Virus record (IMG/VR): IMGVR_UViG_3300022758_000081
Span: 1-4,384 of that record
Direction: 5' to 3' (one strand)
Length of the DNA stretch: 4,384 bases
Source of the DNA: a virus
Lineage: Duplodnaviria > Heunggongvirae > Uroviricota > Caudoviricetes
Part shown: positions 1 to 4,384 of the stretch, piece by piece
Numbering within the stretch: position 1 is the first letter of the stretch
How the letters are laid out: every line of letters starts with the position of its first letter
Program-made: the position numbers and the translations under genes
Notes under the pieces: model-generated
Seen by the model: the letters and a program-made list of their open reading frames with translations, nothing else
What the model was told of the DNA's origin: nothing
Databases searched by the model: none

Positions 1-1096
1 GCCGGGATTCTGGAACTCTCCGTGAAATGCAACATGGGCGATCCGGATAACGATTTCTTCGAGCTTCGTGCAGATGACCTGCGTGATGAGCGTTCTTACC
101 GTCGCCGCATCCAGGCATCCGCCGAAAAAACTGGCGAATAACATTGAGTCAGCAATTGCCAAACAGGCAACCGAAATGGGCTCACTTGTTGTTCACGATA
201 CCCGCGCAATTGGTCCATCTACTGGCCTGTCTGGCTGGGATTTTGTGTCTGATGCAGAGCGCCTGATGTTCTCCCGTGAGCTAAACCGCGATATGGGCAT
301 CAGTTACTTCCTGAACCCTGACGATTACCGCAAAGCAGGCCGCAACCTGGTAGATGGTGACATCTTTGGGCGCGTTCCTGAAGACGCGTATCGCAACGGT
401 ACTATTCAGCGTCAGATTGCTGGCTTTGATGAAATTCTTCGCTCACCGAAACTTCCGGCAGTTACCAAGTCAACCGCTACTGGTGTAACTGTTTCTGGTG
501 CGCAGAAGTTTAAGCCGCAGGCATACACTCTTGATACCGATGGTAACAAAGAGAACGTCGACAACCGTGTTGCAACTGTGACCGTATCCTCCACCACCGG
601 GTTTAAGCGCGGCGACAAAATCAGCTTCACTGGTGTGAAATTCCTGTCTCAGATGGCGAAGAACGTGCTGACTGATGATGCTACTTTCTCAATCACCCGT
701 GTGATCGATGGTACTCACATCGAAATCACGCCGAAGCCGATTGCACTGGATGACGCGTCACTGACAAAAGAAGAGAAGGCTTACGCTAACGTAAACACCT
801 CTCTTGCTGATACCACTCCGGTAAACGTTCTGAACGTGGCAACAACCACCGCTAACGTGTTCTGGGCTGATGACTCAATCCGACTGCTGTCTCAGCCTAT
901 CCCGGTAACCCATGAGCTGTTTGCTGGCATGAAAACGTCTTCCTTCAGCATTCCTGGTATTGGTGTTAACGGCATCTTCGCAACGCAGGGTGATATCAAC
1001 ACTCTGTCTGGTAAGTGCCGTATTGCTGTGTGGTATTCAGCATGTGCTGTACGACCAGAGGCAATTGGTGTTGGTCTGCCTAACCAGACTGCGTGA
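1..1096 (+). CDS. P22-like major capsid (coat) protein, gp5 family; 5'-partial and interrupted by a +1 nt frameshift
   Basis: Frame 1 from the window start translates [38 protein letters not shown], which matches the P22 coat protein as I recall it (..[33 protein letters not shown]). That frame stops at TAA 139-141. Coat homology (KKLANNIE...EMGSLV...[10 protein letters not shown]...GDKISF.GVKFL.QMAKNVL...[12 protein letters not shown]) resumes in frame 2 and runs to TGA 1094-1096. The frame switch maps to the A6 run at 125-130. The ORF-track start at GTG 68 is internal, not the real start. Confidence 0.88.
2..22. repeat. Left copy of a 21-bp perfect inverted repeat (CCGGGATTCTGGAACTCTCCG) shared with the right window terminus
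   Basis: Direct comparison: the reverse complement of 4364-4384 is identical to 2-22, and similarity stops abruptly at the inner boundary. The repeat lies inside the coat ORF (encoding GILELS). Confidence 0.85.
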
Positions 1097-1104
1097 TAAC
1101 CAGA

Positions 1105-1126
1105 GGGAGCTTCGGCTCCCTTTTCT
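1105..1126 (+). terminator. Putative intrinsic (rho-independent) terminator/attenuator downstream of the coat gene
   Basis: Perfect 6-bp GC-rich stem GGGAGC (1105-1110) / GCTCCC (1115-1120) with a TTCG tetraloop (1111-1114), followed by TTTTCT (1121-1126), starting 9 nt after the coat stop codon. Partial terminators after the highly expressed coat gene are a known feature of tailed-phage late operons. Confidence 0.6.
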
Positions 1127-1139
1127 ATTGGAGATACCA

Positions 1140-1727
1140 ATGAGCGTAATGATTTTTCAGGCTGGCGGAGATACCAAAATCTGGGGGCGCAAGCTGAAAA
1201 CGAAAACCGTTGATCCTGATGATGTAGCTGTGCACTTAGCAAATGGCTGGTATAAGCACCCTGACGATGTTCCTGATGATCCTCTTGTTGGTGATCAAAT
1301 TGGGAGTGTTGGCGGAGGTGAAACTTCCCCAGTTGATATGGGCGAAGTGTCCGACGGTTATCACACTTTTAACGAGCTTTACGCTCACCGAGTGCGCCTC
1401 TTCTCATCGCTGATGCATGCTTACGCTGAGCTTTCGTGGTGGTCTCGCAAACACAGTGACGGTGAAGAGTGGGATGGCTGGATCATTGCTGGTATCACCA
1501 CTCCAGAAGGCGAAATCACTTATCACCTACCTGTTGAAGAAATCGAGTTCCTTCCTGAAGGTACTGAGCTTGAGTTCGGGAAAGAGTGGGATGGTCATGA
1601 AGCAAATGATGTTCTTGGACGACTCCTGAGTTTGCGTCCGGCCATTGCAGAGCCAGAAGAAAAACAGCGTAAAAAGCCTGGTCGAAAACCTAAGGCGGCA
1701 GCAGATGAACCTGACAACGAAGGGTGA
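1140..1727 (+). CDS. Hypothetical acidic protein (195 aa) between the coat and gp4 genes; function unknown, possible moron
   Basis: ATG 1140-1142 preceded by GGAG at 1130-1133 (6-nt spacer); open to TGA 1725-1727. The product is visibly Asp/Glu-rich ([53 protein letters not shown]) with a short basic C-terminal tail ([11 protein letters not shown]). Its 3' end overlaps the gp4 start by 23 nt. I do not recognise the family. Confidence 0.6.
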
Positions 1728-2316
1728 TTTAGTTCTTGCGGCATTACGTAAGCTCGGTGTGGCATCAAATGCCACGTTAACCGATGTCGAACCGCAGTCT
1801 ATGGAAGACGGCGTCAACGACCTTGAAATGATGATGGCTGAATGGCTTGGCGGTGATGCGTCACCTGGGATCAACGTTGGCTACATTTTTGCTGATGCAG
1901 ATGTCGCTCCGGATCCGGGCGATGAACACGGTTTATCAAATAACGCTATCAATGCCGTTATTTTCAATCTTGCCTGCCGCATTGCTCCAGATTATGCGCT
2001 GGAAGCGTCTGCAAAACTTATAACCACTGCCAGATACGGGAAAGAGCGACTCGTCAAACTGTCTGCAATGGACAGAGCAAAAGCCGCTAAATGTAAGTCC
2101 GGTTATCCAAACCGTATGCCTGTTGGTAGCGGTAACCAGTTGGCGAAGTGGAACGGTTGGAATTACTTCCACCGAAAGAACCTTGCGATAACGGGAGCGA
2201 ATAATGCCGATTCAGCAACTTCCGCTCATGAAAGGTGTCGGCAAAGACTTCCGAAATGCCGACTATATCGACTATCTACCAGTGAATATGTTGGCTACAC
2301 CCAAAGAAATCCTTAA
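1705..2316 (+). CDS. P22 gp4-like head completion / portal-binding tail accessory factor; 3' end uncertain (possible frameshift)
   Basis: ATG 1705-1707; the N-terminal region [33 protein letters not shown]...[14 protein letters not shown] matches my recollection of P22 gp4. As read, the frame runs 112 nt into gene 10 and ends in an Arg/Cys-rich tail ([15 protein letters not shown]...) that looks like out-of-frame read-through. A TAA at 2202-2204 in the -1 frame would give a TAATG stop-start overlap with gene 10. Confidence 0.72.
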
Positions 2317-3620
2317 CAGCAGCGGATATCTTCGCTCATTCCCGGGCATTGCCAAACGCTCTGATGTAAACGGTGTATCGCGCGGAGTCGAGTACAACAT
2401 GGCGCAGAATGCTGTTTATCGCGTGTGTGGTGGGAAGCTTTACAAAGGCGAAAGCGAAGTCGGTGACGTCGCCGGAAGTGGTCGCGTATCAATGGCGCAT
2501 GGTCGGACATCTCAGGCTGTAGGTGTTAATGGTCAACTGGTCGAGTATCGCTATGATGGCACGGTTAAAACCGTCTCAAACTGGCCTACAGACAGCGGAT
2601 TCACACAGTACGAGTTAGGTTCAGTTCGCGACATTACGCGCTTACGTGGGCGTTATGCGTGGTCAAAAGACGGAACTGATTCATGGTTTATCACTGACCT
2701 TGGAGACGAATCGCACCCTGACCGATACAGTGCACAATATCGTGCCGAGTCTCAGCCTGACGGTATTATCGGCATCGGAACATGGCGAGACTTCATCGTC
2801 TGCTTTGGTTCATCGACGATTGAATATTTCTCCCTGACTGGTGCAACCACAGTTGGTGCTGCTTTGTATGTCGCACAGCCATCGCTGATGGTGCAAAAAG
2901 GCATCGCCGGGACTTACTGCAAACGCCGTTTGCTGATTCCTATGCGTTTATCAGCAATCCGGCAACAGGTGCGCCGTCTGTATACATCATCGGCTCCGGT
3001 CAGGTGTCACCAATTGCCAGCGAGAGCATTGAGAAATCCTCCGCTCCTACACTGCTGATGAACTGGCTGATGGTGTGATGGAATCGCTGCGGTTTGATGC
3101 TCATGAGTTGCTGATTATCCACCTTCCTCGCCATGTTCTCGTGTACGACGCATCTTCAAGCGCCAATGGTCCGCAATGGTGTGTACTGAAAACAGGCTTG
3201 TATGACGATGTGTACCGCGCTATCGACTTCATTTACGAAGGAAATCAGATAACGTGCGGCGATAAGCTGGAATCGGTGACCGGGAAATTGCAGTTCGATA
3301 TCAGCAGTCAGTATGGGCTTCAACAGGAACACCTGCTGTTTACTCCACTGTTCAAAGCGGATAACGCCAGATGCTTCGATCTGGAGGTGGAATCATCCAC
3401 TGGCGTAGCTCAGTACGCCGACCGCCTGTTCCTCTCTGCAACCACTGACGGCATAAATTATGGGCGTGAGCAGATGATTGAGCAGAATGAACCGTTCGTT
3501 TACGACAAACGCGTTTTGTGGAAACGAGTAGGGCGCATCAGGAAAAACATTGGTTTCAAATTGCGCGTTATCACGAAGTCACCTGTCACTCTGTCTGGCT
3601 GCCAGATAAGGATTGAGTAA
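2204..3620 (+). CDS. P22 gp10-like tail accessory factor (head completion / tail hub protein), interrupted by two -1 nt frameshifts
   Basis: ATG 2204-2206 with GGGAG at 2193-2197. [49 protein letters not shown]... closely matches P22 gp10 as I recall it. Homology runs in frame 2 to about 2920, frame 1 from 2923 to 3033 ([38 protein letters not shown]), and frame 0 from 3033 to TAA 3618-3620 ([39 protein letters not shown]...LSGCQIRIE). The ORF-track pieces 2204..3058 and 3075..3620 are fragments of this one gene. The stop overlaps the next ATG as TAATG (3618-3622). Confidence 0.88.
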
Positions 3621-3757
3621 TGGCGGATTCGAATCTCAATGTGCCGGTAATCATTCAGGCTACACGGCTAGACACATCAGTCCTTCCACGCAATATCTTC
3701 TCGCAGTACATCTGCCCGTGGCGGAATTTGCGCGCAGCGAACGATGTGACGCACTGA
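3620..3757 (+). pseudogene. Remnant of the P22 gp26-like tail needle gene: N-terminal ~30 codons only
   Basis: ATG 3620-3622 is translationally coupled to gp10. [28 protein letters not shown] matches the gp26 N-terminus as I recall it ([28 protein letters not shown]). Similarity ends at about codon 29-30 (near 3705-3712). The frame then reads unrelated sequence ([17 protein letters not shown]) to TGA 3755-3757. No frame downstream encodes the expected coiled-coil needle shaft. Confidence 0.7.
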
Positions 3758-4038
3758 ACGGTGGTGTTAGTCAGAATGTATCGCCAGAACGCCAGCCCGA
3801 TTTCCTTGCTGAAGCCGCGAATCTCTGGCAGGTACATGGCGTGGCAATCGAATGTCAGCGGCTGAATCTCCTGATAGTAAACAATGCCGCCGAACTGCCC
3901 GTGCACGTTCACCTCAAAGTAACGGCAATCAGGTTTGTAGTCGTATCCATCACCGTTGTTGCTCCCGGCGATAATGTCAGGGTGATTTCCTACTGCTTCG
4001 ATCAGGTCGATGTTTCGCGTTGGTTTGAACTGAATCAT
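3655..4038 (-). CDS. Hypothetical protein (127 aa), unknown function; convergent with the late operon
   Basis: Start ATG is the complement of 4036-4038, with GGAG about 7 nt upstream on the minus strand. It overlaps the upstream gene's TAA as TAATG. Codon choice in the sampled core (aac ggt gat tac gac aaa cgt gtg) looks like genuine enterobacterial coding sequence, whereas the in-register plus-strand ORF 3613..4095 uses rarer codons (agg, gta). The last ~17 codons are antisense to the gp26 remnant and use rare codons (agg, gga, ata), so the native C-terminus is probably lost or altered. Confidence 0.55.
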
Positions 4039-4384
4039 TACTGCTCCGCGATTATCTTGATGGTTGTGGCAGTAAACGCCGCACCATTTGACTGAATGGT
4101 TAACGTACTGCCATTTGTGGCAAGAAAGCCGTCTTTATCCACGCTGAAGAACGTAGCTAACAGGATGTTGTCGGTTGTTGTCGCCGCATTACGACTGCTG
4201 ACCAGTGTGTCAGGAACAGAGCCGGAAAAGGTTAGCTGCATTGACCTGTTTGCGGTTCCGCTGGGCCACGTCCCGACGATCGACAGCTTGAAGAACAAGG
4301 TTTTGTTCTCGTTGAACACAACCATCTTGTTGTTAACGGTGTCGAAGAATGGTGCCAACGTGCCGGAGAGTTCCAGAATCCCGG
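4038..4384 (-). CDS. Hypothetical protein, C-terminal portion only (the gene continues beyond the right edge of the window); Thr/Ser/Asn-rich, beta-type sequence
   Basis: The minus-strand frame is open from the window edge (..GILELSGTLAPFFDTVNNKMVVFNENK...GSTLTIQSNGAAFTATTIKIIAEQ) to a TAA that is the complement of 4038-4040. The TTG at 4356-4358 reported by the ORF track is not a real start. The composition resembles a fibre, adhesin or receptor-binding domain, but I recognise no family. Its first visible codons lie in the 21-nt terminal inverted repeat. Confidence 0.5.
   Translation of the reverse strand, partial: GILELSGTLAPFFDTVNNKMVVFNENKTLFFKLSIVGTWPSGTANRSMQLTFSGSVPDTLVSSRNAATTTDNILLATFFSVDKDGFLATNGSTLTIQSNGAAFTATTIKIIAEQ
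4364..4384. repeat. Right copy of the 21-bp perfect inverted repeat (reverse complement of 2-22)
   Basis: CGGAGAGTTCCAGAATCCCGG at 4364-4384 is the reverse complement of 2-22. It is read in the same frame (GILELS) by the minus-strand terminal ORF. Confidence 0.85.

What the first reader, a model, noticed from the sequence alone, without database searches (positions are those of the whole stretch)
3028..3042. Second -1 nt frameshift in gp10 at an A3 run (GAGAAATCC)
About 110 nt after the first shift, homology moves from frame 1 (..SIEK, then out-of-frame [13 protein letters not shown]) to frame 0 ([21 protein letters not shown]..). Restoring AAAA at 3034-3036 gives ..[14 protein letters not shown].., consistent with P22 gp10 (..IEKIIRSYTAEEM.. 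as I recall it). The two deletions do not compensate each other, so as written the gene product is truncated.
Basis: seen in the sequence. Interest (0 to 1): 0.45.

Follow-up and report, generated by a model that had tools for sequence, protein, structure and literature searches.

The report
Private one-base deletion breaking phage gp10
One A is missing from a four-A run in the gp10 tail-hub gene of a P22/Sf6-like phage, which breaks the gene; because it is one of several one-base slips seen only in this scrambled 4.4 kb sequence, it is most likely a sequencing or assembly error, or otherwise an ordinary dead-prophage mutation.

Summary
At 3034-3036 the window reads AAA. All 97 fetched relatives carry four bases there (96 AAAA, one AAGA), and 412 complete E. 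coli records carry the exact 36-mer with AAAA. Gp10 homology moves from frame 1 to frame 0 at this point. Adding back one A here and one at 2921-2923 gives a 472-aa protein that differs from Sf6 gene 8 protein at 5 residues.

The AAA allele was found nowhere else. The window also has three more private one-base indels (coat, gp4, gp10 site 1) and two private rearrangement junctions. It has only one private substitution, which lies 11 nt upstream of this site. Ninety-six relatives have intact 1419-nt gp10 genes and no private indels.

A lineage-specific change set dominated by indels, inside a chimeric sequence whose ends form a 21-nt inverted repeat, points to sequencing or assembly error (about 0.6). 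Genuine decay of a defective prophage is the main rival (about 0.3). Programmed recoding is excluded in practice: there is no slippery heptamer, no downstream structure and no conservation. Nothing here is novel, and interest is low.

The parts
2204..3620 (+). gp10 gene (packaged-DNA stabilisation / head closure Hc3 / tail hub; Sf6 gene 8 homologue). It is 1417 nt here against 1419 nt in every relative.
   Evidence: annotated Sf6, HK620 and 683R2 genes; 96 relatives all 1419 nt; PF11134; PDB 7sg7_T and 8tvr_S.
2204..2923 (+). N-terminal part of gp10 in frame 2, native residues 1-240 (M1..K240).
   Evidence: Pfam profile positions 1-239.
2921..2923 (+). Site 1: AAA where relatives have AAAA (-1), at codons K240/T241.
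2924..3036 (+). Middle part of gp10 in frame 1, native residues T241..K278 ([38 protein letters not shown]).
3023..3023 (+). The only private base substitution in the whole window: A where 97 of 97 relatives have C (gp10 A274E). It lies 11 nt upstream of site 2.
3034..3036 (+). Site 2, the finding: AAA where relatives have four bases (AAAA in 96, AAGA in one); -1 at codons K278/I279.
3037..3620 (+). C-terminal part of gp10 in frame 0, native residues I279..E472. As written, the I279 codon ATC would reuse the A at 3036. An ORF from the GTG at 3075 gives 181 aa.
   Evidence: Pfam profile positions 289-469.
3056..3058 (+). TGA that ends the ORF started at 2204 (284 aa as written).
3076..3078 (+). 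TGA that ends frame 1 if only site 1 is repaired (..[17 protein letters not shown]).

Best explanation
One A is missing from an A4 run at codons K278/I279 of the gp10 gene of a P22/Sf6-type (Lederbergvirus-like) phage. Together with an identical A4-to-A3 loss 113 nt upstream, it moves the reading frame twice. As written, the gene would give a 284-aa truncated product instead of the 472-aa tail-hub protein. That much is shown. The following is inferred. The lesion is most likely not a property of a living phage. It is most likely an indel-type read or consensus error, from a homopolymer-prone platform or low coverage, in a poor and chimeric contig. The true sequence most likely reads GAGAAAATCC, and the gene is most likely intact in the biological source.
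For: (1) The allele is private. The 24-mer with AAA has 0 exact matches in the species-representative genomes, IMG/VR viral contigs and JGI metagenomes. The 35-mer with AAA has no match in 5,426 complete E. coli genomes, while the same sequence with AAAA is found at 99% identity or more in 412 records of 415 genomes. All 97 fetched relatives have four bases there.
(2) The changes private to this sequence are almost all indels. Over 4,366 positions covered by at least 5 relatives there is one private substitution (C3023A). Against it stand four private 1-nt indels: +G at 124 in coat, -G at 2173-2178 in gp4, -A at 2921-2923 and -A at 3034-3036.
(3) In a leave-one-out control, 89 distinct relative gp10 sequences have a median of 2 private substitutions and no private indels.
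(4) In mutation-accumulation lines of two Vibrio species, indels make up about 8-21% of point events, with or without mismatch repair (PMC5854121). At those fractions, 4 or more indels among 5 events has probability 0.0002-0.008.
(5) The repaired protein differs from Sf6 gene 8 protein at 5 of 472 residues although the DNA is about 4% different. Selection therefore acted on this gene until essentially the present.
(6) The sequence is chimeric. There are two private junctions, J1 and J2, with 4-6 nt of microhomology (absent elsewhere). A perfect 21-nt inverted repeat ends exactly on the last base of the window, as expected of a whole contig bounded by an assembly-graph repeat.
(7) The single private substitution lies 11 nt from the deletion, which suggests a locally poor stretch.
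(8) Near-identical read-level assemblies of another P22-like phage differ from each other by 1-2 indels and 0-2 substitutions in four of five comparisons, and they split coat, gp26 and gp20 differently. This kind of noise in these genes does occur in public assemblies.
Against: No reads, quality values or platform information are available, so error is inferred and not shown. The runs hit are short (A4, A4, GG, and a G added before an A6), while the A5 runs at 2895-2899 and 3543-3547 are unaffected; classic homopolymer error favours longer runs. Four lesions in three essential genes plus rearrangements is also what a dead prophage remnant looks like. If the window comes from a finished, high-accuracy genome, the error reading fails.
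Confidence: 0.6

Rival explanations
1. The deletion is a genuine mutation in a defective (cryptic) P22-like prophage remnant. Once one essential late gene was knocked out, or the element was rearranged, further frameshifts in coat, gp4 and gp10 were neutral and accumulated. On this reading gp10 is a true pseudogene.
For: Several independent inactivating lesions sit within 4.4 kb: coat +1, gp4 -1 and two -1 in gp10. Gp26 and gp14 (DUF2824) are truncated at a junction with microhomology CGCAGT, which resembles illegitimate recombination in vivo. All lesions are of the slippage type in short runs. A different gp10 split, A5 to A4 giving 291 + 180 aa, recurs identically in 14 contigs from several runs, so broken gp10 genes may exist in nature.
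Against: There is only one private substitution against four private indels. Measured bacterial mutation spectra make that unlikely, at P about 0.0002-0.008. The repaired protein shows no relaxed selection: 5 differences from Sf6 in 472 aa and no nonsense codon. No other genome, metagenome or virome shares any of the lesions or junctions. The window ends coincide to the base with a 21-nt inverted repeat. That suits a graph-bounded contig better than a slice of a chromosome.
Confidence: 0.32
2. The gene is expressed by programmed recoding. A -1 ribosomal slip on the AAA Lys codon at each site (C-AAA-C and G-AAA-U), or insertion of an A by RNA polymerase, would restore the native 472-aa gp10.
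For: A -1 shift after the AAA codon at both sites would reproduce exactly the native sequences ..YCK|TPF.. and ..SIEK|ILR... A modest hairpin follows site 1 (z = -2.1).
Against: Neither site has an X XXY YYZ heptamer, nor even an A-AAA tetramer; the deletion itself removed the fourth A. The RNA downstream of site 2 folds no better than shuffled sequence (z = +0.51; 139 of 200 shuffles fold at least as well). By established knowledge, a run of three A's is far too short for transcriptional slippage, which needs about 7-9. Two inefficient events in series would be required. No relative among 97 loci and hundreds of E. coli prophages has this arrangement. Coat and gp4 are frameshifted too, in the opposite direction in coat.
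Confidence: 0.01
3. The sequence is an in vitro product, such as a single-primer or mis-primed long PCR amplicon, an MDA-amplified chimera, or a cloned or deliberately altered fragment. On this reading the indels arose during amplification, cloning or editing and not during sequencing.
For: The termini are a perfect 21-nt inverted repeat of native coat sequence. The right-hand copy joins gp26 through CGGA, which is the reverse complement of the 21-mer's 3' end TCCG, as mis-priming by a single primer would give. Position 1 is a non-native G. By established knowledge, inverted junctions with short microhomology, like J1, are typical of MDA chimeras.
Against: A 3' match of only 4 nt is weak for mis-priming. 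By established knowledge, polymerase errors are mostly substitutions and not indels. Nothing in the sequence identifies a vector, adapter or primer tail.
Confidence: 0.07

Closest known systems
Sf6 gene 8 protein / P22 gp10 (Pfam PF11134 Phage_stabilise; 'head closure Hc3', tail hub; PDB 7sg7 chain T, 8tvr chain S)
   Same: After repair of the two A runs the protein is 472 aa and differs from Sf6 gene 8 protein at 5 residues. It matches P22 gp10 end to end, and PF11134 over profile positions 1-469. The gene order is the same: coat, small ORF, gp4, gp10, gp26.
   Different: As written, the gene has two -1 deletions (K240/T241 and K278/I279) and cannot encode the full protein. Every relative examined is intact.
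Homopolymer indel errors in consensus sequences from indel-prone platforms or low coverage
   Same: The changes are single-base length changes in short runs, private to one record, greatly outnumbering private substitutions and scattered over several genes. Comparable indel-only differences are seen between near-identical read-level assemblies of a related phage.
   Different: The platform and coverage are unknown. The affected runs are short (2-4 nt), while the 5-nt A runs in gp10 are unaffected.
Frameshift pseudogenes in cryptic or defective lambdoid and P22-like prophages
   Same: Several inactivating lesions in essential late genes, together with rearrangement.
   Different: There is no accompanying build-up of private substitutions or nonsense codons. 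No IS element or host flank is present, and no second genome shares any lesion.
Programmed -1 ribosomal frameshifting (dnaX A AAA AAG; the tail-assembly chaperone gpG/gpGT type of lambda-like phages)
   Same: Only that a -1 shift at an AAA Lys codon would give the native protein.
   Different: There is no heptamer, no stimulatory structure at site 2 and no conservation, and two shifts would be needed.

Membership tests
P22 gp10 / Sf6 gp8 family (PF11134 Phage_stabilise) | Sequence match to the family profile over its full length | tested here: met
   The repaired protein scores 990 bits on profile positions 1-469 of 469. As written, the two ORFs cover positions 1-239 and 289-469.
P22 gp10 / Sf6 gp8 family (PF11134 Phage_stabilise) | Near-identity to structurally characterised members | tested here: met
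   PDB 7sg7_T (Sf6 gene 8 protein) 1069 bits; 8tvr_S (P22 gp10) 1018 bits; both aligned 1-472.
P22 gp10 / Sf6 gp8 family (PF11134 Phage_stabilise) | Conserved position between gp4 and gp26 in the late operon | tested here: met
   The order gp4, gp10, gp26 is seen in the window and in Sf6, HK620 and 10 prophages.
P22 gp10 / Sf6 gp8 family (PF11134 Phage_stabilise) | Uninterrupted ORF of about 472 codons (a functional member) | tested here: not met
   The window gene is 1417 nt in three frames, and the ORF from the start codon stops after 284 aa. The 96 relatives are all 1419 nt and open.
Programmed -1 ribosomal frameshift site | Slippery heptamer X XXY YYZ in the zero frame | tested here: not met
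   The zero-frame context is AUU GAG AAA UCC; re-pairing of tRNA-Lys at -1 would fall on GAA.
Programmed -1 ribosomal frameshift site | Stable downstream stem-loop or pseudoknot | tested here: not met
   Region 3037-3110 has an MFE of -15.2 kcal/mol against a shuffle mean of -16.4 (z = +0.51).
Programmed -1 ribosomal frameshift site | Frameshifted arrangement conserved in relatives | tested here: not met
   None of 97 loci has it; there is no E. coli genome match to the AAA 35-mer; and there are no exact matches in three large collections.
Transcriptional slippage site | Long A or T run (about 7 or more) | tested here: not met
   The run is 3 nt. The threshold comes from established knowledge, not from a test here.
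Decaying prophage pseudogene | Several inactivating lesions in the element | tested here: met
   Four 1-nt indels in coat, gp4 and gp10; gp26 and gp14 truncated at a junction.
Decaying prophage pseudogene | Neutral substitutions accumulating on the same lineage (substitutions outnumber indels; relaxed dN/dS) | tested here: not met
   One private substitution against four private indels over 4,366 positions. The repaired protein has 5 differences from Sf6 in 472 aa.
Decaying prophage pseudogene | The lesion reproducible in independent sequence of the same or related strains | tested here: inconclusive
   It was not found anywhere searched. The source record itself could not be located, so no independent sequence of the same strain was available.
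Sequencing or assembly artefact | Private differences dominated by 1-nt indels at runs, scattered over genes | tested here: met
Sequencing or assembly artefact | Reads disagree with the consensus, or show low coverage or quality at the site | not testable with these tools
   No reads or quality values are available.

The most novel reading that the evidence does not exclude
The AAA alleles are real and the phage is viable. Either gp10 works as separately made N- and C-terminal pieces, or low-level -1 slippage of tRNA-Lys on C-AAA-C and G-AAA-U re-creates enough full-length gp10 to close the portal channel. That would be a naturally split or doubly recoded tail-hub gene.
Probability: 0.01. Interest if true: 0.4.

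Novelty: already known. Interest (0 to 1): 0.06.

Why it matters
It matters only for data quality. As written, gp10 would be annotated as a pseudogene or as two fragments, and so would coat and gp4. The element would then be scored as a defective prophage. If the indels are errors, that annotation is wrong and the phage may well be intact. No new biology follows under either reading. Gp10 is a well-characterised, structurally solved tail-hub protein, and one-base losses in A runs are the commonest kind of both frameshift mutation and consensus error.

Tried and rejected
(1) Locating the source record or any second copy of the lesion failed. Exact look-ups of the 284-aa frameshift product, the 180-aa C-terminal ORF, the 203-aa read-through gp4 and the 127-aa chimeric DUF2824 ORF were all 'not on record'. 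Exact 24-mers across site 2 and across junction J1 gave 0 hits in genome, metagenome and viral collections. The best whole-window matches were only 95-98% identical in E. coli genomes, phages and plasmids.

(2) The 306-aa coat fragment look-up did return contigs. These are other coat genes cut near contig ends, 98% identical, with intact gp10 where it is present. They are not the source.

(3) A protein search with the frameshifted ORF found 291-aa clusters covering its out-of-frame tail. They turned out to carry a different lesion, A5 to A4 at the run equivalent to 2895-2899, with AAAA at both of the window's sites.

(4) Programmed frameshifting and transcriptional slippage were considered and rejected (no conservation).

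(5) Restriction-ligation at CCGG or CCCGGG was considered as the origin of the end structure. It was dropped because the junction sequences do not fit a cut-and-ligate product.

(6) Inferring the assembler's k from the 21-nt terminal repeat did not work out. The extra G at position 1 leaves the register ambiguous.

Full report
**What the window is**

The 4,384-nt window carries part of the late operon of a P22/Sf6/HK620-type podovirus (Lederbergvirus-like).
- Coat gene from its nt 203 onward: window 2-1096.
- A WDGH-domain ORF: 1140-1727.
- gp4: starts at 1705.
- gp10: 2204-3620.
- The first 90 nt or so of gp26: from 3620.

These assignments rest on Pfam hits PF11651, PF25311, PF11650 and PF11134 and on annotated matches in Sf6, HK620, vB_EcoP-683R2 and many E. 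coli prophages. The closest relative found is a prophage in GCA_949281575.1 (L008), at 98.2% over 2-3715. The source record itself was not found in any collection.

**Check of the observation**

- Frame 1 reads ..[24 protein letters not shown] and frame 0 reads [21 protein letters not shown]...
- Sf6, HK620 and 683R2 all have one more A here, and one more A at 2921-2923 (alignment A1; pairwise indel lists).
- Among 97 relatives covering the site, 96 have AAAA and one has AAGA.
- All 96 full-length gp10 genes are exactly 1419 nt with no internal stop. The window's gene is 1417 nt.
- Repairing both runs gives a 472-aa protein that differs from Sf6 gene 8 protein at 5 residues. It aligns 1-472 with the solved Sf6 (7sg7_T) and P22 (8tvr_S) proteins.
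- The sites fall at K240/T241 and K278/I279.
- The two -1 events sum to -2 and do not compensate. The ORF from the ATG at 2204 stops at 3056-3058 after 284 aa.

**Is the allele seen anywhere else?**

No.
- The 24-mer GAGCATTGAGAAATCCTCCGCTCC has no exact match in 185,579 species-representative genomes, IMG/VR or the JGI metagenomes.
- A 35-mer was designed so that only an AAA allele could seed a megablast hit. It finds nothing in 5,426 complete E. coli genomes.
- The positive control with AAAA restored hits 412 records at 99% identity or more, in 415 genomes.
- A search of 5.8 billion protein clusters with the 284-aa product found no cluster carrying both deletions.
- The only clusters that cover the out-of-frame tail (P0001, P0002; 291 aa) carry a different lesion. 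That lesion is A5 to A4 at the run equivalent to window 2895-2899, with AAAA at both of the window's sites.

**Context that decides the interpretation**

Projecting about 100 related loci onto the window shows that site 2 is one of four private single-base indels.
- An extra G at 124 (CCGCC-G-AAAAAA) shifts the coat gene. Frame 1 then stops at 139-141.
- A missing G at 2173-2178 (AAAGGAAC to AAAGAAC) removes the gp4 stop, and that ORF runs on to 2316.
- Two A4-to-A3 losses lie in gp10.

Across 4,366 positions covered by at least 5 relatives there is a single private substitution, C3023A (gp10 A274E). It lies 11 nt upstream of site 2. A leave-one-out control on gp10 gives the relatives a median of 2 private substitutions (maximum 40) and no private indels in 89 distinct sequences. 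The window has 1 private substitution and 2 private indels.

So the window's own branch is ordinary in substitutions and anomalous only in indels. Mutation-accumulation data for two gamma-proteobacteria put indels at about 8-21% of point events, with or without mismatch repair (PMC5854121: 219 to 60, 138 to 22, 4313 to 382 and 1022 to 273). At those fractions, four or more indels among five events has probability 0.0002-0.008. The repaired protein also shows the result of strong purifying selection: about 4% DNA divergence from Sf6 but only 5 amino-acid differences and no nonsense codon.

**The sequence is also scrambled**

- **Junction J1.** At about 3702-3707, gp26 nt 90 or so is joined to the reverse complement of gp14/DUF2824 nt 337. 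The join runs through a CGCAGT microhomology with an imperfect extension.
- **Junction J2.** The reverse strand then runs back to gp26 nt 625. At 4364-4367 it is joined, through CGGA, to the reverse complement of coat nt 203-223.
- **Terminal repeat.** As a result, 4364-4384 is a perfect 21-nt inverted repeat of 2-22, and it ends exactly at the last base of the window.
- **Position 1.** It is a G where every relative has A.
- **Neither junction occurs elsewhere.** For J1, no E. coli match spans it (best coverage 85%) and its 24-mer has no exact hit in the three collections. For J2, no fetched relative covers 4368-4384 or carries the reverse-oriented 21-mer, and no E. coli match extends past window 4367.

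The exact coincidence of the window's ends with the repeat suggests that the window is an entire contig bounded by a repeated k-mer, or an amplicon bounded by one primer. It does not look like a slice of a finished chromosome. This last step is inference.

**Best explanation and rivals**

- **Artefact (about 0.6).** The deletion at 3034-3036 is an indel-type consensus error in a low-quality, chimeric contig, and the biological gene reads GAGAAAATCC.
- **Real pseudogene (about 0.3).** All lesions are real and the element is a recently dead, rearranged prophage remnant. The multiplicity of lesions and the microhomology junctions fit this. The 4-to-1 ratio of indels to substitutions, the absence of any relaxed-selection signal and the end structure argue against it.
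- **In vitro origin (about 0.07).** Mis-primed PCR or MDA could explain the end repeat and the inverted junction, but explains the indel bias less well.
- **Programmed recoding (about 0.01).** A -1 slip after the AAA codon would give the native sequence at both sites. However, there is no slippery heptamer, the RNA downstream of site 2 folds no better than shuffles (z = +0.51), and three A's cannot support transcriptional slippage (established knowledge). Two events in series would be needed, no relative shares the arrangement, and coat and gp4 are broken as well.

**Comparison with known things, and verdict**

The gene is an ordinary member of the P22 gp10 / Sf6 gp8 family (PF11134) in every respect except that its ORF is interrupted. 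The lesion is an ordinary homopolymer -1 event. Nothing is novel. The practical message is that the frameshifts in this record should not be taken as biology until reads confirm them. Interest is low, at about 0.06.

Noticed in passing
window 118-124 (coat gene): A private extra G (CCGCC-G-AAAAAACT, where 33 of 33 relatives have CCGCCAAAAAACT) shifts the coat gene from frame 1 to frame 2. Frame 1 stops at 139-141.
   Followed up: partly
window 2173-2178 (gp4 3' end): A private loss of one G (AAAGGAAC to AAAGAAC; 33 of 33 relatives have the extra base) removes the gp4 stop, so the ORF runs on to 2316, over the gp10 start.
   Followed up: partly
window 2921-2923: This is the first gp10 frameshift (AAAA to AAA at K240/T241). 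It is private like site 2. A hairpin follows it (2924-2963; for the 74 nt folded, z = -2.1).
   Followed up: partly
window 3702-3707 (J1): Gp26 nt 90 or so is joined to the reverse complement of gp14/DUF2824 nt 337 through a CGCAGT microhomology. This truncates both genes and creates chimeric ORFs (3620-3757 on +, 3655-4038 on -). The junction 24-mer is absent from all collections scanned.
   Followed up: partly
window 2-22 and 4364-4384 (J2 at 4364-4367); position 1: A perfect 21-nt terminal inverted repeat of native coat sequence. The right copy is joined to the reverse complement of gp26 nt 625 through CGGA and ends on the last base of the window. Position 1 is a non-native G. This suggests a whole contig bounded by an assembly-graph repeat, or a single-primer amplicon. 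Unresolved.
   Followed up: partly
window 3023: The only private substitution in the whole window (C to A, gp10 A274E) lies 11 nt upstream of the site-2 deletion.
   Followed up: yes
L102-L107 (Logan contigs), gp10 at e.g. L104 4001-5418: Another P22-like phage has gp10 split into 291 + 180 aa by an A5-to-A4 loss, identical in 14 contigs from several runs. Coat, gp26 and gp20 are split differently between these near-identical contigs. This may be systematic homopolymer error or a real shared lesion; it was not resolved.
   Followed up: partly
L013 11066-13157; L012 12506-13051; L011 and L016 8073-8588: HNH homing-endonuclease genes are inserted in the late operon of some relatives. In L013 one lies just after a duplicated 34-aa gp10 stub and ahead of a full gp10. 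In L012 one lies between gp10 and gp26. In L011 and L016 one lies between the scaffold and coat genes.
   Followed up: no
window 1140-1727: A 195-aa WDGH-domain ORF (PF25311) occupies the slot between coat and gp4, where Sf6 and HK620 have a 61-aa ORF. The exact protein is widespread (index lists 290 blocks). RefSeq annotations of the same DNA call shorter versions (104-129 aa).
   Followed up: no
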